In this document: positions 968 to 43,433 of the stretch, piece after piece | Numbering within the stretch: the stretch's first letter is position 1 | Layout of the letters: every line of letters starts with the position of its first letter | NCBI RefSeq assembly: GCF_013315695.1 | Contig: NZ_CP054353.1 | Reading direction: 5' to 3' (one strand) | DNA: 64,000 bases | Source of the DNA: Escherichia coli | GTDB taxonomy: Bacteria > Pseudomonadota > Gammaproteobacteria > Enterobacterales > Enterobacteriaceae | Program-made: the position numbers and the translations under genes | The notes under the pieces: model-generated | What the model saw: only the letters and a program-made list of their open reading frames with translations | Database searches by the model: none | What the model was told of the DNA's origin: nothing

Positions 968-2398
968 TTAATCTGTGCTTTGTTCTGCCAGTCTGGCGAT
1001 TCGTTTTGCCATTCCGCGAAAAATAAACAGATGCGCGGGGATCATCAATAACCAGTAAAACAACCCTGGCATACCGTGCGGATGCCAGAATGCGCGAACA
1101 TCGATAGTACGATAGTCACCTTTATCTTCCAGGGTAAAACACAGTCGTCCCAGCCCCGGCGCTTTCATGCCAAATAACAGCGTAAGTTGTTTTTGCGGTT
1201 CAACGACAATCACTTTCCAGCTATCCACCGCATCTCCGGTCTGCAAATATTCACGCTCCGGGCGGCCTTTTGCCAGCTTATGACCGATCGCGCGGTCCAT
1301 CAGCGCCCGGGTCTGCCACAAAATATTACCAAAGAAATAACGCTCTCTACCGCCGATTTGATTCACCACCTGCCATAAAGCCGCAAGGCTGGCGGACGTT
1401 TTAACGGTAAACCCCGCCTGTTTGGCGAAATAACCGTACTCCGGTCGCCAGCGGGCAAAGGCCTGAGCGTCGTATCCCCAGTCGCTGGAGTTGACCAGCT
1501 TTTCTTCCTCTTTCAGGGTGCGACGTACCGCGTCATCGAAAGCAATCAGCCGTTGTGGGATGAGTGCACGTAACGCGGTGTCATCTGCCAGCAGATCGTG
1601 TTTCAGCCCCTGAATCAACGCTTTGGCGGTGGTGGGCGGTACGGAAGTAATCACATTGAGAAACCACACCGAAATCCAGCGGGTCGGAAAGGGGATGGGG
1701 ATCAACCAGCGGCGCTTACCGCTCACCGCCATAAAATGTTCAAACTGTTGCTGATAACTGAGTACTTCTGGCCCAGCGGCTTCGAAGATGCGATGTTCGC
1801 AGGCCGGATGATCTAACAGCGCCACCAGATAGTGCAGCAGGTTTTCCAGCGCAATGGGCGTGGTGCGTGAACGGACCCAGCGTGGCGGCGTTAACACGGG
1901 CAAGTTGTAAACCATATCGCGCATGACTTCGAACGCCGCTGAACCTGCACCAACGATTATTCCGGCACGCAATTCGGTCACCGGGACACCCGCTTCACGA
2001 AGAATATCCGCCGTAGCCTGACGGGCGCGCAGATGGTCCGACTGCTCATGTGGCGGGGCCTGCAACGAACTGAGAAAGATTAATTGCTTAACTGGGACTT
2101 CACGTAGCGCATCGCGGACGTTGAGGGCCACCTGGCGCTCCTGAGCGATAAAATCGCCGCCTTCGCCCATGCTGTGCACCAGAAAATAGACCGTATCGAT
2201 ATCCTGCAACAGGGCCGGAAGGTTATCCGGCCAGCTGAGATCGACTTTATGGCAACTGACATTTGCCAGTTGCAGCTTTGCAAGCCTGTCGACATGACGT
2301 GCCGCCGCCAGGATCTGATGCCCCTGCTGGCTGAGTGTTCGCACCAGATGCTGACCAATGTAGCCACTGGCACCGAGAACTAAAATGCGTTGCGGCAC
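968..2398 (-). CDS. ybjT: DUF2867/NAD(P)-binding domain protein YbjT
   Basis: ORF 968..2473; likely GTG start at 2398 giving ...[18 protein letters not shown] (Rossmann motif); recognised as E. coli YbjT from memory. Confidence 0.8.
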
Positions 2399-2408
2399 GT
2401 CTCCCTCC

Positions 2409-3410
2409 TTAACGCGCCAGGAATGCGCGCCAGTGGGCGGCGACTTCCGCCAGCTGAGCGCGCGAGACGTCAAGATGCGTCACCAGGCGGACAATCGGCG
2501 AGGCGTTAATCAGCACGTTTCTCGCTTTCATGTATTCGCCTAACGCGGCAGCATTTTCTTCCCCGACGCGAACAAACAGCATATTGGTGTCCTGACGCAT
2601 CACATCCGCGCCTGCTTCACGCAGCTGCTCCGCCATCCAGGCAGCGTTGTCGTGGTCTTCCTGCAAGCGCGCAACGTTATTTTTCAGGGCATATATTCCG
2701 GTGGCAGCCAGAATGCCGGACTGGCGCATCCCGCCACCTGTCATTTTCCGCCAGCGAATGGCACGTTTAATGTAATCACGATTACCGACGAGTAATGAAC
2801 CGACTGGCGTCCCAAGACCTTTCGACAGGCAAATGGTGAACGAATCACAATATTGTGTGATCTCTTTCAGTTCGCAGCCGTAAGCCACCACAGCATTAAA
2901 GATGCGCGCACCGTCCACATGCAGCGCCAGATTGCGCTCGCGGGTAAATTCCCATGCTTCTTTGAGGTATTCACGCGGCAGCACTTTGCCGTTGTGAGTG
3001 TTTTCCAGACTGAGTAATTTGGTGCGGGCGAAATGGATATCGTCGGGTTTGATTTTCATCGCCACTTTATCCAGCGGTAGCGTGCCGTCGGCAGCCGCGT
3101 CGATGGGTTGCGGTTGAATACTGCCCAGCACCGCCGCGCCACCGGCTTCAAACAGATAGTTATGCGCGGCCTGACCGACAATATACTCTTCGCCGCGTTC
3201 ACAGTGACTGAGCAGAGCGACCAGGTTGGCCTGAGTGCCGGTAGGCAGAAAAATGGCGGCTTCTTTACCGGAAAGCTCTGCTGCATAGTCCTGCAGAGCA
3301 TTAACGGTAGGGTCGTCTCCGTAAACGTCGTCCCCAACCGGGGCGGCCATCATCGCTTCGAGCATGGCGCGGCTCGGTCGGGTAACGGTATCACTGCGTA
3401 AATCAATCAT
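2409..3410 (-). CDS. ltaE: low-specificity L-threonine aldolase
   Basis: 333-aa [16 protein letters not shown]..., PLP-dependent aldolase signature; synteny ybjT-ltaE-poxB. Confidence 0.9.
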
Positions 3411-3446
3411 GGCATGTCCTTATTATGACGGGAAATGCCACCCTTT

Positions 3447-5165
3447 TTACCTTAGCCAGTTCGTTTTCGCCAGTTCGATCACTTCATCACCGCGTCCGCT
3501 GATGATTGCGCGCAACATATACAAGCTGAAACCTTTGGCCTGTTCGAGTTTGATCTGCGGTGGAATGGCTAATTCTTCTTTGGCTACTACCACATCCACC
3601 AACACCGGACCGTCGATGGAAAAGGCGCGTTGCAGGGCTTCATCGACTTCAGAGGCTTTTTCCACGCGAATACCCGTAATTCCGCACGCTTCGGCAATGC
3701 GGGCAAAGTTGGTGTCGTGCAGCTCAGTACCGTCTGTCAGGTAGCCTCCGGCTTTCATCTCCATCGCCACAAAGCCCAGCACGCTGTTATTAAAGACGAT
3801 AATTTTCACTGGCAATTTCATCTGCATTACTGAGAGGAAATCGCCCATCAACATACTGAAACCGCCATCGCCGCACATGGCGACCACCTGACGTTCCGGC
3901 TCGGTTGCCTGCGCACCCAGCGCCTGCGGCATGGCGTTAGCCATCGAACCGTGGTTAAACGAACCTAACAGACGACGCTTGCCGTTCATTTTCAGATAAC
4001 GTGCCGCCCACACCGTTGGCGTACCAACGTCACAGGTAAAGATGGCGTCATCGGCGGCAAAATGACTAATTTGCTGCGCCAGATATTGCGGGTGAATGGC
4101 TTTCTCGCTCGGTTTAGCTAAATCATCCAGCCCTTTGCGGGCGTCGCGGTAATCTTCCAGCGCTTTATCCAGAAACTTGCGATCGGTTTTTTCTTCCACC
4201 AGTGGCAGCAATGCCCGCAGGGTTGATTTGATATCGCCGACCAGTGCCATATCTACCTTGCTATGCGCGCCGATGCTGGCTGGGTTGATATCAATCTGAA
4301 TAATTTTGGCATCGGTCGGGTAGAACGCGCGGTAGGGAAATTGCGTGCCGAGCAGCACTAACGTATCGGCATTCATCATGGTATGGAAACCTGACGAGAA
4401 GCCGATTAATCCCGTCATTCCGACATCATACGGATTATCGTATTCGACATGCTCTTTACCGCGCAGGGCATGAACAATAGGCGCTTTAATTTTCCCGGCA
4501 AACTCAACTAACTCTTTATGCGCCCCCGCGCAGCCGCTGCCACACATCAGGGCGATATTGCTGGAATAACGCAGCAGTTGCGCCAGTTTGCGTAACTCTT
4601 CTTCTTCCGGCGTCACGACTGGTTGTGGCGCATTATACCAGTGGGTAGTTGCCCCTTCTGGTGCAGGTTTTAACGCCACGTCGCCCGGTAACACGACAAC
4701 GGAAACGCCACGGTTTAGCACTGCTTTGCGCATAGCAATTGCCAGCACTTGTGGGATCTGCTCTGGGCTGGAAACCAGCTCGCAATAGTGACTACATTCG
4801 CGGAATAGCTCTTGTGGGTGGGTTTCCTGGAAATAGCCGCTGCCAATTTCGCTGGAGGGAATATGAGCGGCAATCGCCAGTACCGGAACGTGATTGCGGT
4901 GGCAATCGAACAGGCCGTTGATTAAGTGCAGGTTGCCGGGGCCGCACGATCCGGCACAGACCGCCAGTTCTCCGCTAAGTTGTGCTTCAGCGCCAGCGGC
5001 AAACGCCGCCACTTCTTCATGCCGGGTGGACATCCACTCGATGGTGCCCATGCGATTAAGACTGTCACTAAGACCGTTCAGAGAGTCGCCCGTGACTCCC
5101 CAGATGCGTTTCACTCCTGCCGATTCGAGTGTTTTGGCGATATAAGCTGCAACCGTTTGTTTCAT
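3447..5165 (-). CDS. poxB: pyruvate oxidase (ubiquinone-dependent pyruvate dehydrogenase), TPP/FAD enzyme
   Basis: 572-aa [34 protein letters not shown]..., TPP-binding GDGG motif. Confidence 0.9.
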
Positions 5166-8073: not shown

Positions 8074-8973
8074 TTACGCGGAAAAAAAGGCGATGAGGAT
8101 CGGCACTAACAGGCTGAGAATAAAACCGTGAACAATCGCCGCCGGGACCATATCCAGCCCGCCAGTACGTTGAAGAACGGGCAGGGTGAAATCCATCGAC
8201 GTCGCACCGCATAAGCCCAGTGCAGTAGAGCGGCTACGGCGAATCAGCCCAGGGATTAACATAATAGCAATCAGCTCACGGGCCAGATCATTAAAAAACG
8301 CCGCGCTCCCGATTACTGGACCAAAAGATTCGGTCAATAAAATACCGGAAAGAGAATACCAGCCGAAACCGGAGGCCATTGCCAGCGCGGTATTGATGGG
8401 AAGATCAAGAATAAAGGCGTTAATTAAACCACCAATTAATGAACTGGCAACCACCACCACGGCGACAATCATTCCCCGGCGATTAAGGACAATCTGCTTT
8501 AAGGTCATGCCATTATTGCGCAACTGAATACCGACGAGGAAAAGTAGCAGAATTAAGGTGTATTCACTGGCTTTGGTCGCGTGTTGTAAGAAAGCCAGTC
8601 CACTCAGACCAATGGCAAAACCAATCACTACTACGCCGCACAGTTTTAGCGACTCCAGTGCCATCGCAATACGCGACGGGAGTTTTTCTTGATGATGGTG
8701 GTTGCGCCATGGCAGGCCGCGCTCCAGCCACAACAACGCAATAATATTGCAGAGTAAAATAATGGTAATGCTGACGGAGGAATAATGCAGAATCGCCAAC
8801 AGGTTACTGGCGAGGTTATCGAGAAACGCCAGACTGATACCCATAAAAAAGAGAATGAGGTAAACCATCCAACTTAATAGCTGATTAATAACTCTTAATG
8901 CAGCTTTTTGGCGAAGCGGAATGAGGTAACCCACAATCAGGGGAACCAGAATGATTAACAGCCCAGAAAACAT
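8074..8973 (-). CDS. ybjE: lysine exporter LysO (YbjE), inner-membrane protein
   Basis: ORF 8074..9021, highly hydrophobic; likely start MFSGLLIILVPL at 8973. Confidence 0.85.
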   Translation of the reverse strand: MFSGLLIILVPLIVGYLIPLRQKAALRVINQLLSWMVYLILFFMGISLAFLDNLASNLLAILHYSSVSITIILLCNIIALLWLERGLPWRNHHHQEKLPSRIAMALESLKLCGVVVIGFAIGLSGLAFLQHATKASEYTLILLLFLVGIQLRNNGMTLKQIVLNRRGMIVAVVVVASSLIGGLINAFILDLPINTALAMASGFGWYSLSGILLTESFGPVIGSAAFFNDLARELIAIMLIPGLIRRSRSTALGLCGATSMDFTLPVLQRTGGLDMVPAAIVHGFILSLLVPILIAFFSA

Positions 8974-9312
8974 GAAAACCCAGTCCTTGCAAAGATGAAG
9001 TCGAAATGCGCGATGACACACTACTGAAAGCGGAAGGACGAGTAAAGTTGCAATTAAAAGGAAATGTTATGCAAAAGGAGCAGTAGAGTATTCGTTTTCA
9101 TTTAAAGATGTTCTTGCGCTTTAATTACAAACCGCACCGGTGTTGGTGGCGTCAAAATCGCTGAAGCGTTCCCCGAAGGCCGGGGCAGCCCACATGGATG
9201 TGGGCTGAGGGCGCGTCTTACAAGGATAATGAGATGGACGCTCCAGATTTTACGGTATCAAAGTACCAGACTGGATCGTTGCAATACGTCCTGAAAAATT
9301 AGGGGCGTCCAC

Positions 9313-10338
9313 ATGAAAGTATCAACTCTTGGTATCGACCTGGCAAAGAACGTTTTTCAGCTTCATGGTGTCGATCATGAAGGCCATACTATTTTGCGTA
9401 AAAAGCTCACCCGGGCTAAGTTTGTTCAGTTTGTGATTCAACTGGAACCTTGTCTGATTGGCATGGAAGCCTGCTCATCCAGTCATTATTTTGCGCGATT
9501 ATTCACCCGCTATGGTCATGAGGTAAAACTCATACCTCCGCAGTATGTGAAGCCTTATGTGAAAACGAACAAGACGGATGCAGCAGATGCTGAAGCAATC
9601 TGCGAAGCGGTAACCCGTCCGAATATGCGTTTTGTTCAGATAAAAACCGAAGAGCAGCAGGCCGTTTTAGCGTTACACACTGAACGGGGAATACTTATCC
9701 GTGAGCGGATTGCCTGTGCCAATAGTTTAAGAGCCACACTTGCTGAGTTTGGTATTACGATTGCGGCCGGACAAAGCCATTTAACACGTGAGCTGCCAGC
9801 CATTCTGGAGGATGGCGAAAATGGTTTATCTCCCTTTGTCAGAACCAGCATCTACAGACAGTCTAAACATATCCGGGAACTTGAAGAACAAGTTAAACAG
9901 GTAGAAGAAGCTCTGGCCTCCTGGTATAGAACGCAGGAAGCCTGCCAGAGAATGGCCAAGATCCCGGGGGTTGGCATGCTAACGGCCACTTATGTGGTAG
10001 CAGCAGTGGGTAATGCCCGACAATTCAGTACCGCAAAGCAGTTCGCTTCATGGCTGGGGCTGACACCAAAGGAACATTCCAGCGGCGGGAAACAGCAACT
10101 GGGAGGGATCAGCAAACGTGGAGATGGATATTTCCGATACCTGCTGGTTCACGGCGCACGCGCACTTACCGCCTGGGTCAACCGAAACGGCGCGGTTGAG
10201 GAGAATTCCTGGCTTCAGGGACTCCTTGAGCGGAAGCACTACAATGTAGCTGTTGTCGCCATGGCGGCAAAAACAGCGAGGATCATGTGGTCAATGTTGT
10301 CACACAATACTGAATATCAACCTCGGCAGCTCGCCTGA
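9313..10338 (+). CDS. IS110-family (IS1111-subgroup-like) transposase
   Basis: 341-aa ORF MKVSTLGIDLAKNVFQLHG...EACSSSHYFAR...VKSNKTDAADAEAICEA; matches the N-terminal RuvC-like DEDD architecture of IS5075/IS1111-type transposases as I recall them. Confidence 0.85.
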   Translation: MKVSTLGIDLAKNVFQLHGVDHEGHTILRKKLTRAKFVQFVIQLEPCLIGMEACSSSHYFARLFTRYGHEVKLIPPQYVKPYVKTNKTDAADAEAICEAVTRPNMRFVQIKTEEQQAVLALHTERGILIRERIACANSLRATLAEFGITIAAGQSHLTRELPAILEDGENGLSPFVRTSIYRQSKHIRELEEQVKQVEEALASWYRTQEACQRMAKIPGVGMLTATYVVAAVGNARQFSTAKQFASWLGLTPKEHSSGGKQQLGGISKRGDGYFRYLLVHGARALTAWVNRNGAVEENSWLQGLLERKHYNVAVVAMAAKTARIMWSMLSHNTEYQPRQLA

Positions 10339-10800
10339 CACAAGGTCAGTCAATCTGACGAGGTGCTGAAAAAAAGTTAACGTCCTGGTAGGTGCAGGTG
10401 ACTTCAGAAGATGGCAAAACAGGTAAGACCGCAGGCAGGATACACCGAGAGGTAACAAGGGCAAGTTAGCCCGTAGAGGATGATTGGTACCTGCCTGGCG
10501 GATTTCATCATGGTTCGGGATAAAAATCCCATCAGAAACCGGATATATGGCTGCACCTACCCGTTTTATTACATAACTGAAGAAAGCATTGCATTCCGGG
10601 AGCGTCCATATATGTTACCTCGCGCCCGACCCGGTAGCCGTAAGGGATAAGCCGAGGGCACCGCGCAGCGGCGATTTTGTTCGCCAGAGCCCGGGGGTGC
10701 AGGGGGCGGCGGCGATTGGCCGCCCCCTGCGCGCTCCTTGCGCCAGTGATTATATGAAGCAATGCACATGACAGGAGCGCAACAGGATGAGAGACTGAAC
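10339..10800 (+). ncRNA. candidate IS-encoded guide (seekRNA/bridge-RNA-like) structured region at the 3' end of the transposase
   Basis: No credible ORF; GC-rich with strong hairpins, e.g. gcagggggcggc-ggcgattg-gccgccccctgc near 10700; IS1111-subgroup elements carry their guide RNA downstream of tnp. Confidence 0.3.
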
Positions 10801-10840
10801 TATTCTCGTTATTTTCGGACCTGATGACATTAATTAATTT

Positions 10841-10924
10841 TAAAATATCATCTTAAATACGCCAGTCACCACCAGTAGCCCAATCAGGAAAATAATCAAT
10901 ACAGCCCAGAGTATAATTTTCATT
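10841..10924 (-). CDS. yohP: small membrane protein YohP (27 aa)
   Basis: Minus-strand ORF translating to MKIILWAVLIIFLIGLLVVTGVFKMIF; too short for the ORF track. Confidence 0.85.
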
Positions 10925-11146
10925 GGCGTTCCTTTATTTGTGAGTGCTGAATAAGTATAGGAAAAAACGAAGCCCTTTGCCGCTATTCATAAACGATTAA
11001 GATAAATCGGAAGATATCATTCGCTTAGTGTATATTTTTCTGGATATGTCGTTTTATTGCCACTGATGTATTGCCACGCGAAACTAAAAAATATATCGCA
11101 ACACACGGTAATCTCCGCGCACCTTTTCTTACCTGATTATTCCCCC

Positions 11147-12583
11147 ATGAATCGTGATTCTTTTTATCCAGCCATCGCCTGTTTTCCGCTGTTACTGATG
11201 CTAGCCGGGTGTGCGCCTATGCATGAAACCCGCCAGGCGTTAAGCCAGCAAACACCCGCGGCACAAGTTGACACCGCATTACCCACGGCGCTGAAAAATG
11301 GTTGGCCAGACAGCCAATGGTGGCTGGAGTATCACGATAATCAACTCACCTCATTAATTAATAACGCACTACAGAACGCACCGGATATGCAGGTGGCTGA
11401 ACAGCGCATTCAGCTGGCTGAAGCCCAGGCGAAGGCAGTTGCCACTCAGGATGGTCCACAGCTCGACTTTTCTGCGGATATGGAGCGGCAAAAAATGTCG
11501 GCAGAAGGGTTAATGGGGCCGTTTGCTTTGAACGATCCTGCCGCAGGTACGACCGGTCCGTGGTACACCAACGATACTTTTGGCTTAACGGCGGGCTGGC
11601 ATCTCGATATCTGGGGAAAGACTCGGGCGGAGGTTACTGCTCGCCTCGGTACGGTTAAAGCACGGGCGGCGGAACGCGAGCAAACCCGCCAATTGCTGGC
11701 TGGCAGCGTAGCCCGCCTGTACTGGGAGTGGCAAACCCAGGCGGCGTTAAACACGGTCTTACAGCAAATCGAAAAAGAGCAGAACACCATTATCGCCACC
11801 GATCGCCAGCTATATCAGAACGGGATTACTTCTGCAGTTGAAGGTGTGGAAACCGATATTAATGCCAGCAAAACCCGGCAGCAGCTCAACGATGTCGCGG
11901 GGAAAATGAAAATTATTGAGGCACGGTTAAGTGCGCTCACCAACCACCAGACAAAGTCATTGAAGCTTAAACCGGTCGCGTTGCCGAAAGTGGCAAGTCA
12001 GCTTCCTGATGAACTCGGGTACTCCTTACTGGCCCGGCGGGCAGATTTGCAGGCGGCGCACTGGTACGTTGAGTCATCGTTAAGCACTATTGATGCGGCA
12101 AAAGCGGCATTTTATCCTGACATCAACCTGATGGCCTTTCTGCAACAGGATGCGTTGCACTTAAGCGATCTGTTCCGTCATTCCGCGCAGCAAATGGGCG
12201 TTACGGCAGGCCTGACGCTACCCATTTTCGATAGTGGTCGTCTTAACGCCAATCTCGATATCGCAAAAGCCGAAAGCAACTTGTCTATCGCCAGCTACAA
12301 CAAAGCGGTGGTTGAAGCGGTAAATGACGTGGCGCGGGCGGCCAGCCAGGTTCAGACACTGGCGGAGAAAAACCAGCATCAGGCGCAAATTGAGCACGAT
12401 GCCTTGCGTGTGGTAGGTCTTGCGCAGGCGCGCTTTAACGCGGGCATCATTGCTGGTTCCCGCGTCAGCGAAGCCAGAATCCCCGCGCTGCGTGAGCGGG
12501 CCAATGGCCTGTTATTGCAAGGGCAGTGGCTGGATGCCTCCATTCAACTCACCGGTGCGCTGGGCGGGGGTTACAAACGCTGA
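11147..12583 (+). CDS. mdtQ: multidrug efflux outer-membrane factor lipoprotein (OprM/NodT family), apparently intact
   Basis: ORF 11057..12583; likely start MNRDSFYPAIACFPLLLMLAGC (lipobox) at 11147; OMF family features. Confidence 0.8.
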   Translation: MNRDSFYPAIACFPLLLMLAGCAPMHETRQALSQQTPAAQVDTALPTALKNGWPDSQWWLEYHDNQLTSLINNALQNAPDMQVAEQRIQLAEAQAKAVATQDGPQLDFSADMERQKMSAEGLMGPFALNDPAAGTTGPWYTNDTFGLTAGWHLDIWGKTRAEVTARLGTVKARAAEREQTRQLLAGSVARLYWEWQTQAALNTVLQQIEKEQNTIIATDRQLYQNGITSAVEGVETDINASKTRQQLNDVAGKMKIIEARLSALTNHQTKSLKLKPVALPKVASQLPDELGYSLLARRADLQAAHWYVESSLSTIDAAKAAFYPDINLMAFLQQDALHLSDLFRHSAQQMGVTAGLTLPIFDSGRLNANLDIAKAESNLSIASYNKAVVEAVNDVARAASQVQTLAEKNQHQAQIEHDALRVVGLAQARFNAGIIAGSRVSEARIPALRERANGLLLQGQWLDASIQLTGALGGGYKR

Positions 12584-12635
12584 TGATATGCGCCTTCTAT
12601 ACTTAACATTTATTCAGCGTTAAGTGGAGAACTCG

Positions 12636-13397
12636 ATGGCACAGGTCGCGATAATTACCGCCTCCGATTCGGGGATCGGCAAAGAGTGCGCGTTATTACT
12701 GGCGCAGCAGGGGTTTGATATTGGCATTACCTGGCACTCAGATGAAGAAGGGGCAAAAGATACCGCGCGTGAGGTAGTTAGCCACGGCGTACGTGCGGAG
12801 ATCGTGCAACTGGATCTCGGCAATCTACCAGAAGGGGCACTGGCGCTGGAGAAACTTATTCATCGGCTGGGGCGTATTGATGTGCTGGTGAATAATGCGG
12901 GCGCAATGACCAAAGCGCCGTTTCTTGATATGGCTTTCGATGAGTGGCGCAAGATTTTTACCGTTGATGTCGATGGTGCATTTTTATGCTCGCAAATTGC
13001 TGCCCGCCAGATGGTGAAGCAAGGGCAGGGCGGTCGCATCATCAACATTACATCGGTACATGAACATACGCCGCTGCCGGATGCCAGCGCCTACACAGCC
13101 GCTAAACATGCGCTCGGCGGGTTAACCAAAGCAATGGCGTTGGAGTTGGTCAGGCATAAAATTTTGGTGAACGCAGTCGCACCTGGGGCGATCGCCACGC
13201 CAATGAACGGCATGGATGACGGCGATGTGAAGCCCGACGCGGAGCCTTCGATTCCCTTGCGACGTTTTGGCACAACGCATGAGATTGCCAGTCTGGTGGT
13301 ATGGCTTTGTTCGGAGGGCGCAAATTACACCACCGGGCGGTCGTTGATAGTGGATGGCGGCTTTATGTTGGCGAATCCGCAGTTCAACCCAGAATAG
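12636..13397 (+). CDS. yohF: short-chain dehydrogenase/reductase YohF
   Basis: ORF 12624..13397; start MAQVAIITASDSGIGKE (SDR TGxxxGxG motif), YxxxK catalytic motif. Confidence 0.85.
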   Translation: MAQVAIITASDSGIGKECALLLAQQGFDIGITWHSDEEGAKDTAREVVSHGVRAEIVQLDLGNLPEGALALEKLIHRLGRIDVLVNNAGAMTKAPFLDMAFDEWRKIFTVDVDGAFLCSQIAARQMVKQGQGGRIINITSVHEHTPLPDASAYTAAKHALGGLTKAMALELVRHKILVNAVAPGAIATPMNGMDDGDVKPDAEPSIPLRRFGTTHEIASLVVWLCSEGANYTTGRSLIVDGGFMLANPQFNPE

Positions 13398-14852: not shown

Positions 14853-15025
14853 AAAGTTCTTTTGCGCTGCATTGCTGGCGTAAATGTCAGCAATGCAGCA
14901 TTTCCTCACGATTCTTCTTTGACGATCGCACTTTTTGCTCGTTATGATGGCGTCGCTAGCCTCAGTAAATCCTTACTCCGGCGGTGCGCAACCCGTGCGC
15001 GTGAACCACTATCTGAATGCTCATC

Positions 15026-33367: not shown

Positions 33368-34509
33368 ATAGTTTAACGGCAAATAACCGTTTGTCGCAAC
33401 AGCTGGTGGTCAGCGTCGCTGAACACCTGTTGTTACGGCATGAATGCAGATTACCAAATCACCTGGCTGTAAGTAACCACAGAGAACTTTACCTGACTGT
33501 GGGGGGCGAGTTGTGCAGGAACTTAACCGCTGGTTTCGTGACGGAAGAGGGCTTTATGTCCATGTTATTCGTTGGGAGCCAGAAACACAGCGCGTTATCT
33601 ATCTTCGCAAAGACTACCCGCATGAGTGCTTTAGTCCTTTGTGGAAATTCAGGCGTGATTTTGTTGAGTGTGAAGGACCACCAGCATATTGATTCTGCAA
33701 TTCCGGGACGTTACACTGTTCAGGCACCTTATAAAGCGGGTGCCGGGATTGGCGTCCTGAAATTCGCACATGCGCATAACCGCGCTTCAGCGGTTTTTTT
33801 GCGCACGTTTCCTCACATCCAAATTATGGTGGGGCGTGCAGGGGCATCGAAAGATGCGCCGGGGTCATGTGCGACCGGTTACGCCAACCCTGTACGTCTC
33901 ACCACCTCTGTGATTGGCGTCCCATGTGGTGAGTTTTCAAAATTCGCACATGAGGATGTCACTATGGCAACCACCCCTACCCAAACTCACCCTAAAATTG
34001 ATGTTATCCATGGGAAGGCTGTTACCTCTTCTTTGGCCGTTGCCGAATATTTCTGCAAGCAGCACAAAAACGTTATTCAAAAAATCCAGACGCTTGAGTG
34101 CTCTGTTGAATTCACTGAGCTGAATTTTCAGCCCAGTGATTACACCGATTGCACAGGCCGCAAACTCCCTTGTTACCAAATCACCCGCGACGGTTTTGCG
34201 TTTCTTGCCATGGGCTTCACGGGGAAACGTGCTGCCCGGTTCAAAGAGGCATACATCAATGCCTTTAACCAGATGGAGAAACAGCTTTCAAATCCCTCTG
34301 TACTGAGCGACGTTGCACATAACGCCAGCGTTCTCTATTCCTACATTTCATCAATTCATCAGGTCTGGCTGCAGCAGCTTTATCCTATGTTGGCAAAAGC
34401 CGAATCTCCGCTGGCTGTTAGCTTGTATGACTATATTAATGATGCTTCGGCGCTGGCCTGCCTCATAAATTTGTCGCTGAATCCTTCAGAGGTAAGGGGG
34501 CGTAAATGA
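33364..34509 (+). CDS. Rha-family phage regulatory protein, copy 1 (variable N-terminal region plus Rha domain)
   Basis: C-terminal ITRDGFAFLAMGFTGKRAARFKEAYINAFNQME matches the Rha-domain signature as I recall it; possible internal start near 33965 (MATTPTQ...). Confidence 0.65.
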   Translation: MNSLTANNRLSQQLVVSVAEHLLLRHECRLPNHLAVSNHRELYLTVGGELCRNLTAGFVTEEGFMSMLFVGSQKHSALSIFAKTTRMSALVLCGNSGVILLSVKDHQHIDSAIPGRYTVQAPYKAGAGIGVLKFAHAHNRASAVFLRTFPHIQIMVGRAGASKDAPGSCATGYANPVRLTTSVIGVPCGEFSKFAHEDVTMATTPTQTHPKIDVIHGKAVTSSLAVAEYFCKQHKNVIQKIQTLECSVEFTELNFQPSDYTDCTGRKLPCYQITRDGFAFLAMGFTGKRAARFKEAYINAFNQMEKQLSNPSVLSDVAHNASVLYSYISSIHQVWLQQLYPMLAKAESPLAVSLYDYINDASALACLINLSLNPSEVRGRK

Positions 34510-35387
34510 TCCGGAATATTTTCAAACTGTTTACCAATCGCCACCAGCATATTGATTCTGCAATTCCGGGACGTTACACTGTTCAGGCACCTTATAAAGC
34601 GGGTGCCGGGATTGGCGTCCTGAAATTGTCAACGGCGATGTATGACGCGCCAGCGTCTTTTTTATCGTCCGCATTTGCTCACATCCAGATTATGGTGGGC
34701 TGGGCGGGGGCACCGAAAGGTGCGCCGGTCTCCGTTGACGCCGGTTACGCCAACCCCGTCCAGTTCACCACCAGTGAAATTGGCGTTTCCGGTGGTGGAA
34801 GTTTTTCACTGTCAACGGAGGCTGCCATCATGGCTACGATCCCAGCCCTCACTCAACCTGAAATCACCATTGACAACGGCCAGGCCGTTACCACTTCTTT
34901 GGCTGTTGCCAACTTCTTCTCCAAGCGTCACGACGATGTGCTGAAAAAGATCCGCACTCTGGATTGTTCCCCTGAGTTTTGTGCCCGCAATTTTGCGGAG
35001 ACATCGATTTCGGTAAATCAACCGAACGGTGGTACACGCAAGCTCCTTTGCTATCAAATCACACGAGACGGTTTTGCGTTTCTTGCTATGGGTTTCACGG
35101 GTAAACGTGCTGCCCGGTTCAAAGAGGCATACATCAATGCCTTTAACCAGATGGAAAAACTGCTTTCAAAGCCATCCACGCTGAGCGATGCCGCAGATAA
35201 CGCCAGCGTGCTTTACTCCCACCTGTCGGTAATCCACAAGGTCTGGCTGCAGCAGCTTTATCCCATGTTGGCAAAAGCCGAATCCCCGCTGGCTGTAAGT
35301 CTGTATGACCGCATCAACGACGCGGCGCTACTGGCCAGTCTCATAAATTTGTCGCTGAACCCTTCAGAGGTAAGGGGGCGTAAATGA
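34506..35387 (+). CDS. Rha-family phage regulatory protein, copy 2 (tandem paralogue)
   Basis: 293-aa ORF; same Rha C-terminal motif; N-terminus MIRNIFKLFTNRHQHIDSAIPGRY repeats a segment inside copy 1. Confidence 0.65.
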   Translation: MIRNIFKLFTNRHQHIDSAIPGRYTVQAPYKAGAGIGVLKLSTAMYDAPASFLSSAFAHIQIMVGWAGAPKGAPVSVDAGYANPVQFTTSEIGVSGGGSFSLSTEAAIMATIPALTQPEITIDNGQAVTTSLAVANFFSKRHDDVLKKIRTLDCSPEFCARNFAETSISVNQPNGGTRKLLCYQITRDGFAFLAMGFTGKRAARFKEAYINAFNQMEKLLSKPSTLSDAADNASVLYSHLSVIHKVWLQQLYPMLAKAESPLAVSLYDRINDAALLASLINLSLNPSEVRGRK

Positions 35388-42691: not shown

Positions 42692-42767
42692 GGCCCTTTA
42701 GCTCAGTGGTGAGAGCGAGCGATTCATAATCGCCAGGTCGCTGGTTCAAATCCAGCAAGGGCCACCA
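42692..42767 (+). tRNA. tRNA with CAU anticodon (Ile2/Met-type; ileZ-like)
   Basis: Cloverleaf GGCCCTT-TA-GCTCAGTGGTGAGAGC..anticodon loop TTCATAA..GGTTCAAATCC..AAGGGCC-A-CCA. Confidence 0.85.
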
Positions 42768-42774
42768 TCACATA

Positions 42775-42851
42775 CCGCCATTAGCTCATCAGGATAGAGC
42801 GCCAGCCTTCGAAGCTGGTTGCGCGGGGTTCGAGTCCTCGATGGCGGTCCA
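42775..42851 (+). tRNA. tRNA-Arg (anticodon UCG; argN-like)
   Basis: Acceptor CCGCCAT/ATGGCGG, anticodon loop CTTCGAA, T-loop GGTTCGAGTCC, encoded CCA. Confidence 0.8.
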
Positions 42852-42864
42852 TTATCTGTACCCT

Positions 42865-42941
42865 GCGTTATTAGCTCAGCCGGACAGAGCAATTGCCTTC
42901 TAAGCAATCGGTCACTGGTTCGAATCCAGTACAACGCGCCA
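42865..42941 (+). tRNA. tRNA-Arg (anticodon UCU; argO/argU-like)
   Basis: GCGTTATTAGCTCAGCCGGACAGAGC..anticodon loop CTTCTAA..GGTTCGAATCC..CGCCA, close to host argU. Confidence 0.8.
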
Positions 42942-42954
42942 GACTTATTTTTCC

Positions 42955-42980
42955 CGGCTCGCTTTTGCGGGCTTTTTTTT
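42955..42980 (+). terminator. rho-independent terminator after the tRNA cluster
   Basis: gctcgc-tttt-gcgggc hairpin followed by eight T. Confidence 0.7.
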
Positions 42981-43433
42981 AAATGTCTCACAATTCAGAC
43001 GGTTGACAGTTGTCTGTTTTGCGGGGAGTTTGTTAAAAGAAACTGGCATGGTGAATCCCCCTGTGCGGAGGGGCAATCAGCAACTGGTGTTTTGTCACCG
43101 ACCCTTATCCTTTCTGTGCGGGTTCAGGTGCTGATACTGAACTCACCGGGAGGCACCCGGCATCATGTGCATGATGATACAGATACGCGGCTTTAGCCCC
43201 TCTCCGGAGGGGCTTTCTTGTGGGCAAAAAAAAGCCCGAGTGGGTTCGGGCAACAGCATGAGATATACATTTTTATAATCGAATGGATTTTAACCAGAAT
43301 TCATAAGGCTGCGCAACTGCGCGGTCTTTTTCGAATTGCGGGCTGTCGTCTCTCTTCTGCCATTGTCCTGTAACTTCCGGACTTCAGCCCGCTCCTTATT
43401 TTACTCACAATATTATCCCGGCCGGGAGGATTC

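What the first reader, a model, noticed from the sequence alone, without database searches (positions are those of the whole stretch)
11147..12583. mdtQ appears intact
The outer-membrane efflux gene reads through as a single 478-aa lipoprotein ORF. I recall mdtQ (yohG) being a frameshifted pseudogene in K-12, so this strain may keep a functional efflux component.
Basis: partly seen in the sequence, partly recalled or inferred. Interest (0 to 1): 0.25.

Follow-up and report, generated by a model that had tools for sequence, protein, structure and literature searches.

The report
Ordinary intact mdtQ outer-membrane channel gene
This E. coli strain carries the normal, uninterrupted version of the outer-membrane channel gene mdtQ; the broken copy is a one-base deletion peculiar to the K-12 laboratory lineage, so an intact copy is the rule and not a discovery.

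Summary
Window 11147..12583 (+) is one 478-aa ORF with an LAGC lipobox (Cys22). It matches NCBI's MdtQ equivalog model end to end (1016 bits, cut-off 650).

K-12 MG1655 annotates mdtQ (b2139) as a pseudogene. Alignment shows 42 substitutions and a single 1-nt deletion in K-12, in the A5 run at window 11290-11294 (codon 48-50).

The intact state is the norm, however:
- The locus is present in 5421 of 5426 complete E. coli genomes.
- The A5 allele is exact in 4589 genomes.
- The K-12 A4 allele is exact in only 355. An evenly spaced sample of 60 of these was essentially all K-12 laboratory derivatives.

dN/dS between this allele and the repaired K-12 allele is 0.048. A 2025 review already states that mdtQ is core-genome conserved despite its pseudogene annotation.

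The gene is an orphan NodT-family, TolC-like channel with no adjacent pump. Its function remains unproven. Verdict: real, ordinary and already known.

Side note: 535 bp upstream, an IS110-family element inside a TRIP1 repeat marks one end of a terminus-spanning inversion (lysO|yohP junction). It occurs in 97 genomes and never without the IS.

The parts
11147..12583 (+). mdtQ (yohG) coding sequence, 478 aa, intact
   Evidence: ORF listing and sequence. NF008524 MdtQ equivalog 1016.5 bits against cut-off 650, 1-478/478. Two PF02321 OEP stretches. 100% identical annotated CDS in NZ_OZ547117.1.
11147..11212 (+). Lipoprotein signal peptide ending in lipobox LAGC (residues 19-22, Cys22 codon 11210-11212)
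   Evidence: Translation MNRDSFYPAIACFPLLLMLAGC; regex hit at residue 19. TIGR01845 NodT-family lipoprotein model 272.7 bits against cut-off 210.
11290..11294 (+). A5 homopolymer run. K-12 has A4 here, and that is the only frame-disrupting difference.
   Evidence: Global alignment to MG1655 b2139. Allele counts from 51-nt and 50-nt probes.
10840..10923 (-). yohP small membrane protein gene, divergent upstream neighbour, as in K-12
   Evidence: Annotation of the identical stretch in NZ_OZ547117.1 transferred to window coordinates. Same neighbour in MG1655.
12636..13397 (+). yohF SDR oxidoreductase, 52 nt downstream on the same strand; possibly co-transcribed (inference)
   Evidence: NF009384 483.5 bits. 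Annotation. No +strand terminator-like site between the genes.
9228..10611 (+). IS110-family (IS1111-like) insertion sequence, 1384 bp, transposase 9313..10338. It is not part of mdtQ but marks the rearrangement junction 535 bp upstream.
   Evidence: NF033542 359 bits. Boundaries from BLAST to K-12. Subterminal inverted repeat and AT flanks. Distribution.
9132..9227 (.). Left part of a TRIP1 repeat (K-12 TRIP1a, lysO side)
   Evidence: BLAST to K-12 914784-915111, and 90.7% to K-12 2229292-2229388.
10612..10790 (.). Right part of a TRIP1 repeat (K-12 TRIP1c, mdtQ side)
   Evidence: BLAST: contiguous 99.2% match to K-12 2229293-2228705, and 93.3% to K-12 915110-915288.

Best explanation
This is the ordinary wild-type allele of mdtQ (yohG). 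It encodes an orphan outer-membrane-factor lipoprotein of the NodT/OprM/CusC branch of the TolC superfamily. Inferred mechanism: the precursor is exported, acylated on Cys22 after signal peptidase II cleavage, and assembles as a trimer into a beta-barrel plus a long periplasmic alpha-helical tunnel. That tunnel serves as the exit duct for an inner-membrane pump/adaptor pair encoded elsewhere. The K-12 'pseudogene' is a recent, lineage-specific loss of one A from an A5 run at codon 48-50. The window strain (an IAI39/SMS-3-5-like lineage) simply never had that lesion. Shown here: intactness, family membership, the exact K-12 lesion, its restriction to K-12-type genomes, and purifying selection. 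Inferred: trimeric channel function, efflux role and partner.
Against: No adaptor or pump gene lies next to it. There is no recognisable Shine-Dalgarno in the 15 nt before the ATG (...GATTATTCCCCCATG). Promoter-like sites are not above chance (2 found, 2.3 expected), and the promoter is unconfirmed in the literature. The only reported phenotype is mildly increased puromycin/acriflavine/tetraphenylarsonium susceptibility of null mutants, as cited by the review. From my own knowledge, that work appears to have been done in K-12, where the gene is already frameshifted, so it is weak evidence. Independent truncations occur in Salmonella Typhi and Paratyphi A (PMC9241588), and there is an IS421 insertion in one E. 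coli genome (H39). The gene is therefore dispensable in some lineages.
Confidence: 0.9

Rival explanations
1. The ORF is intact but effectively silent or dispensable. It would be a cryptic gene that contributes nothing measurable to efflux and is intermittently lost, with K-12 as one example.
For: Orphan gene with no partner nearby. No Shine-Dalgarno and no promoter signal above chance. Promoter unconfirmed and function 'not elucidated'. Independent inactivations in K-12, S. Typhi and Paratyphi A, and by IS421 (H39).
Against: dN/dS of 0.048 over 42 substitutions and presence in 5421 of 5426 genomes show sustained purifying selection, which a functionless gene would not experience.
Confidence: 0.2
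2. MdtQ is a functional channel whose physiological cargo is not drugs. It might export an endogenous metabolite or peptide, possibly linked to the co-oriented downstream oxidoreductase yohF.
For: mdtQ and yohF are 52 nt apart on the same strand with no terminator-like site between them, and this pairing is the same in K-12. Drug phenotypes reported are marginal. In the review's tree, MdtQ and MdtP are divergent from TolC and CusC and 'may have distinct functions'.
Against: There is no direct evidence for any substrate. Co-transcription with yohF was not tested.
Confidence: 0.2
3. The apparent intactness is a homopolymer-length error in this assembly, and the strain really has the K-12 type frameshift.
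For: The difference lies in a homopolymer run, which is a known error hotspot (own knowledge).
Against: The same A5 allele is exact over 51 nt in 4589 independent complete genomes. The surrounding sequence carries 42 substitutions relative to K-12, so this is not a K-12 type haplotype.
Confidence: 0.01

Closest known systems
E. coli K-12 MG1655 mdtQ / yohG (b2139), annotated pseudogene
   Same: Same locus and neighbours (yohP divergent upstream; yohF, yohD, yohC and pbpG downstream). 97.1% nucleotide identity (42 substitutions in 1437 nt). Only 6 amino-acid differences once the K-12 frame is repaired.
   Different: K-12 has A4 instead of A5 at window 11290-11294, which shifts the frame after residue 49 or 50 and stops at codon 70. 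Further upstream, K-12 has dusC beyond yohP, whereas the window has an IS110-family element and lysO.
Intact MdtQ of other E. coli (e.g. O157:H7 Q8X659, used for the AlphaFold model in PMC11762307)
   Same: [quoted passage not shown] Core-genome conserved.
   Different: The window allele belongs to a minority haplotype. Only 70 genomes are at least 99% identical over 11000-12700, and the rest are 95-99%.
MdtP (YjcP), outer-membrane factor of the mdtNOP operon
   Same: Paralogous NodT-family lipoprotein (NF007390 353 bits, aligned 17-477). Equally uncharacterised.
   Different: The score is below the MdtP cut-off of 597, so this is not an MdtP. MdtP has adjacent adaptor and pump genes, while MdtQ stands alone.
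Solved outer-membrane factors: VceC (1yc9), OprM (1wp1), SilC (9rmm), CusC (3pik), CmeC (4mt4)
   Same: Sequence homology over the whole mature chain (E from 7e-38 to 1e-21). This implies the same trimeric barrel-plus-tunnel architecture, and most of these are N-terminally acylated lipoproteins.
   Different: These proteins have known partner pumps and substrates. MdtQ has neither, and it has no solved structure.
TolC
   Different: About 12% identity. TolC is not a lipoprotein. The score is far below the TolC family cut-off of 225.

Membership tests
MdtQ equivalog (NCBIfam NF008524) | Whole-protein score above the curated cut-off (650 bits) with an end-to-end alignment | tested here: met
   1016.5 bits, residues 1-478 on profile positions 1-478 of 478.
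MdtQ equivalog (NCBIfam NF008524) | Orthologous chromosomal position (yohP-mdtQ-yohF-yohD-yohC-pbpG) | tested here: met
   Same order and orientation as MG1655. BLAST shows colinearity from K-12 2229293 downwards.
NodT-family outer-membrane-factor lipoproteins (TIGR01845) | Family HMM above cut-off (210 bits) | tested here: met
   272.7 bits, residues 16-475 on profile positions 4-460 of 460.
NodT-family outer-membrane-factor lipoproteins (TIGR01845) | N-terminal signal peptide with a lipobox and an invariant Cys | tested here: met
   LAGC at residues 19-22 after a hydrophobic stretch.
NodT-family outer-membrane-factor lipoproteins (TIGR01845) | Two tandem OEP repeats (PF02321) | tested here: met
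   Pfam OEP at 101 bits with two matched stretches, the best at residues 69-266.
NodT-family outer-membrane-factor lipoproteins (TIGR01845) | TolC-like trimeric barrel/tunnel fold | tested here: inconclusive
Functional tripartite multidrug efflux system | Cognate periplasmic adaptor and inner-membrane pump genes in the same operon or neighbourhood | tested here: not met
   Neighbours are yohP, yohF, yohD, yohC, pbpG, an IS and lysO; none is an adaptor or tripartite pump gene. The review also notes that mdtQ is encoded independently.
Functional tripartite multidrug efflux system | Expression and a drug-efflux phenotype | not testable with these tools
   Only a consensus scan was possible. Promoter-like sites are at chance level and there is no Shine-Dalgarno.
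K-12-type mdtQ pseudogene | A4 instead of A5 at gene positions 144-148, causing a frameshift | tested here: not met
   The window has A5 and a continuous frame.

The most novel reading that the evidence does not exclude
Because K-12 alone carries the frameshift, decades of K-12-based efflux genetics may have been blind to a fourth working exit duct. In wild E. coli such as this strain, intact MdtQ could provide TolC-independent export for some pump or endogenous substrate. A separate reading concerns the neighbouring DNA: the IS110-family element in the TRIP1 repeat 535 bp upstream may have made the 1.3-1.5 Mb terminus-spanning inversion through its own RNA-guided recombinase, and not through homologous recombination.
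Probability: 0.25. Interest if true: 0.35.

Novelty: already known. Interest (0 to 1): 0.07.

Why it matters
It matters little as a discovery. An intact mdtQ is what almost every natural E. coli has, and the literature already notes that the gene is core-conserved despite K-12's pseudogene label. The practical points are cautionary. K-12 is the atypical strain at this locus, so a K-12 knock-out phenotype for mdtQ is hard to interpret. MdtQ's role should therefore be studied in a non-K-12 background or in a K-12 strain with the A-run repaired.

Tried and rejected
1. I designed 51-nt and 50-nt probes so that every 28-mer seed would span the indel, expecting each probe to hit only its own allele. 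The search still aligned the other allele with a gap. I used the exact-identity bands instead, plus an E-value cut that admits only perfect matches.

2. I checked for independent recurrence of the A5-to-A4 slip outside K-12. The only candidate in the spread sample (EcN_Sk, 5.06 Mb) has an mdtQ identical to K-12 at all 1436 positions, so it is the same allele and not a recurrence.

3. The promoter/terminator scan upstream of mdtQ found nothing above chance.

4. An Rfam scan of the whole window found no family within the IS110 element or near mdtQ.

5. I looked for guide-like matches between the IS 3' non-coding region and the TRIP1 target flanks. GAGGTAACA (10449) and GTAAGAC (10423) are reverse complements of the right and left target flanks. 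However, the count of shared 7-mers or longer is not significant (2 observed, 0.77 expected, 19% of shuffles), so this stays a lead only.

6. I did not run structure prediction or the large protein-database searches. Family membership was already unambiguous, and a published model exists.

Full report
**Observation**

Window 11147..12583 on the + strand runs from ATG to TGA as 1437 nt, which is 478 codons plus the stop, with no interruption. The mechanical ORF reaches back to a TTG at 11057. The ATG at 11147 is nonetheless the start that aligns with position 1 of NCBI's 478-position MdtQ model. It also yields a canonical lipoprotein signal peptide, MNRDSFYPAIACFPLLLMLAG|C, with lipobox LAGC at residues 19-22.

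**Identity**

- The protein scores 1016.5 bits on NF008524 (MdtQ equivalog, cut-off 650), matching 1-478 of 478.
- It scores 272.7 bits on TIGR01845 (NodT-family outer-membrane subunit, cut-off 210).
- Its scores for MdtP, CusC-type, AdeK, AdeC and TolC models are below their cut-offs.
- Pfam finds two OEP repeats.
- Against solved structures, it is homologous over residues 51-477 to VceC (1yc9, E = 7e-38), and then to OprM, SilC, CmeC, CusC, OprN, MtrE and OprJ.
- Its neighbours are those of K-12 mdtQ: yohP divergent upstream, then yohF, yohD, yohC and pbpG downstream.

MG1655 annotates mdtQ (b2139, 2227323-2228758) as a pseudogene of 1436 nt. RefSeq flags K-12-type genomes as 'frameshifted'. 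Global alignment of the two genes gives 42 substitutions and exactly one indel. K-12 lacks one A of the A5 run at window 11290-11294 (gene positions 144-148). Its reading frame therefore leaves the MdtQ sequence after ...PTALK and stops at codon 70. Restoring that A gives a K-12 frame with no other stop and only six amino-acid differences from the window protein: L106I, D143G, T159N, A230S, H267N and H417R. There are 36 synonymous and 6 non-synonymous differences, giving dN/dS = 0.048. The K-12 lesion is thus young, and the gene has otherwise been under strong purifying selection.

**How unusual is an intact copy?**

It is not unusual at all.

- The locus is found in 5421 of 5426 complete E. 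coli genomes, and 5407 of them cover at least 80% of the query.
- A 51-nt probe centred on the A5 run is matched exactly in 4589 genomes.
- The corresponding 50-nt K-12 probe is matched exactly in only 355.
- An evenly spaced sample of 60 of those 355 consists of MG1655, BW25113, DH5alpha, DH1, C600/EC600, J53, JM109, TG1, MC4100, HMS174, NCM3722, S17-1, NEB strains, laboratory-evolved lines and similar.
- The only listed carrier with an un-K-12-like genome size, EcN_Sk, has an mdtQ identical to K-12 at every one of 1436 positions. It carries the same allele and is not an independent slip.

**How it most likely works**

The following is inference from family membership. The precursor is exported and lipidated at Cys22. 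It then trimerises into an outer-membrane beta-barrel with a long periplasmic helical tunnel, and acts as the exit duct for an adaptor/pump pair encoded elsewhere.

Several points weaken a confident 'functional efflux component' claim:
- No partner genes are nearby.
- There is no Shine-Dalgarno before the ATG.
- No promoter signal rises above chance.
- The drug phenotypes are marginal, and from my own knowledge they appear to have been measured in K-12, which already carries the frameshift.
- The gene has been lost independently elsewhere: truncations in S. Typhi and Paratyphi A (PMC9241588) and an IS421 insertion in one E. coli genome (H39).

Conservation and the low dN/dS argue that the gene does something. 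Whether that is drug efflux, or export of an endogenous compound (possibly linked to yohF, 52 nt downstream with no terminator-like site between them), is open.

**Context noticed while checking**

Upstream of yohP the window does not continue into dusC as K-12 does. BLAST against K-12 gives three segments:
- 8900-9227 is the lysO side, running into the left part of the TRIP1a repeat (K-12 ...915111).
- 9228-10611 is a 1384-bp insertion.
- 10612 onward is the right part of TRIP1c and the mdtQ side (K-12 2229293 downward).

The insertion encodes a 341-aa IS110-family RNA-guided transposase (NF033542, 359 bits). It has an AT dinucleotide at both junctions and an 11-bp subterminal inverted repeat, ATGGACGCTCC/GGAGCGTCCAT. 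Its 273-nt 3' non-coding region folds better than shuffles (z = -3.0). This layout is IS1111-like (own knowledge).

The lysO-IS-yohP junction occurs in 97 genomes, including IAI39, SMS-3-5 and others. A synthetic junction with the IS removed is found in none. The IS is present in only 179 genomes, with a median of two copies. In strain MSB1_4I the reciprocal junction dusC-IS-aqpZ lies 1.55 Mb away, with the IS in the opposite orientation (compared with H114). mdtQ therefore sits just inside one end of a terminus-spanning inversion bounded by two inverted IS copies.

A 2024 paper catalogued ybjE/yohG and aqpZ/yohI junctions as TRIP1-repeat rearrangements (PMC10888264). The word 'transposase' does not occur in its text. 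The IS lies 535 bp from the mdtQ start, beyond yohP. The 10612-11200 stretch is 99.2% identical to K-12, so there is no sign that the rearrangement alters mdtQ itself.

**Verdict**

Interest is low.

Noticed in passing
window 9132-10790 (IS at 9228-10611): A 1384-bp IS110-family (IS1111-like) element is inserted at an AT dinucleotide inside a TRIP1 repeat. Its left flank is K-12 TRIP1a (lysO side, about 0.915 Mb) and its right flank is K-12 TRIP1c (mdtQ side, about 2.229 Mb), so this is one junction of a terminus-spanning inversion. The junction occurs in 97 of 5426 genomes (IAI39, SMS-3-5 and others) and never without the IS. The reciprocal dusC-IS-aqpZ junction was verified in strain MSB1_4I. 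The published TRIP1 rearrangement paper (PMC10888264) does not mention a transposase.
   Followed up: partly
window 10339-10611: The 273-nt 3' non-coding region of the IS folds more stably than shuffles (z = -3.0). It contains GTAAGAC (10423) and GAGGTAACA (10449), which are reverse complements of the left and right TRIP1 target flanks. This may be a guide (bridge/seek) RNA, but the matches are not statistically significant and no Rfam family hit it.
   Followed up: partly
L007 (NZ_CP046396.1) 3001-4384: In genomes with a single copy, the same IS sits between yegH and a RelE/ParE toxin fragment near asmA. I did not check whether that site is also a TRIP1-type repeat.
   Followed up: no
window 33724-34775 and 42692-43281: Prophage-type RNA genes are present: two isrK plus C4-antisense pairs, three tRNAs, STnc100 and AsxR (anti-stx2 sRNA). 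They indicate a lambdoid prophage in the second half of the window.
   Followed up: no
window 14941-15021: An Rfam Peptidase-S11 cis-regulatory RNA motif (72.8 bits) lies upstream of pbpG.
   Followed up: no
L005 (NZ_CP172017.1, strain EcN_Sk) 2381-3816: A 5.06-Mb stool isolate from Herdecke, Germany carries an mdtQ identical to K-12, including the frameshift, with K-12-identical YohF and YohD proteins. This could be a K-12-related natural lineage or a K-12-derived segment.
   Followed up: partly
hits H213-H235, yohP-dusC intergenic region of many phylogroup-A/B1-type genomes: Many genomes have an IS1 inserted in the TRIP1c/yohP upstream region, so this intergenic repeat seems to be a recurrent IS landing site.
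   Followed up: no
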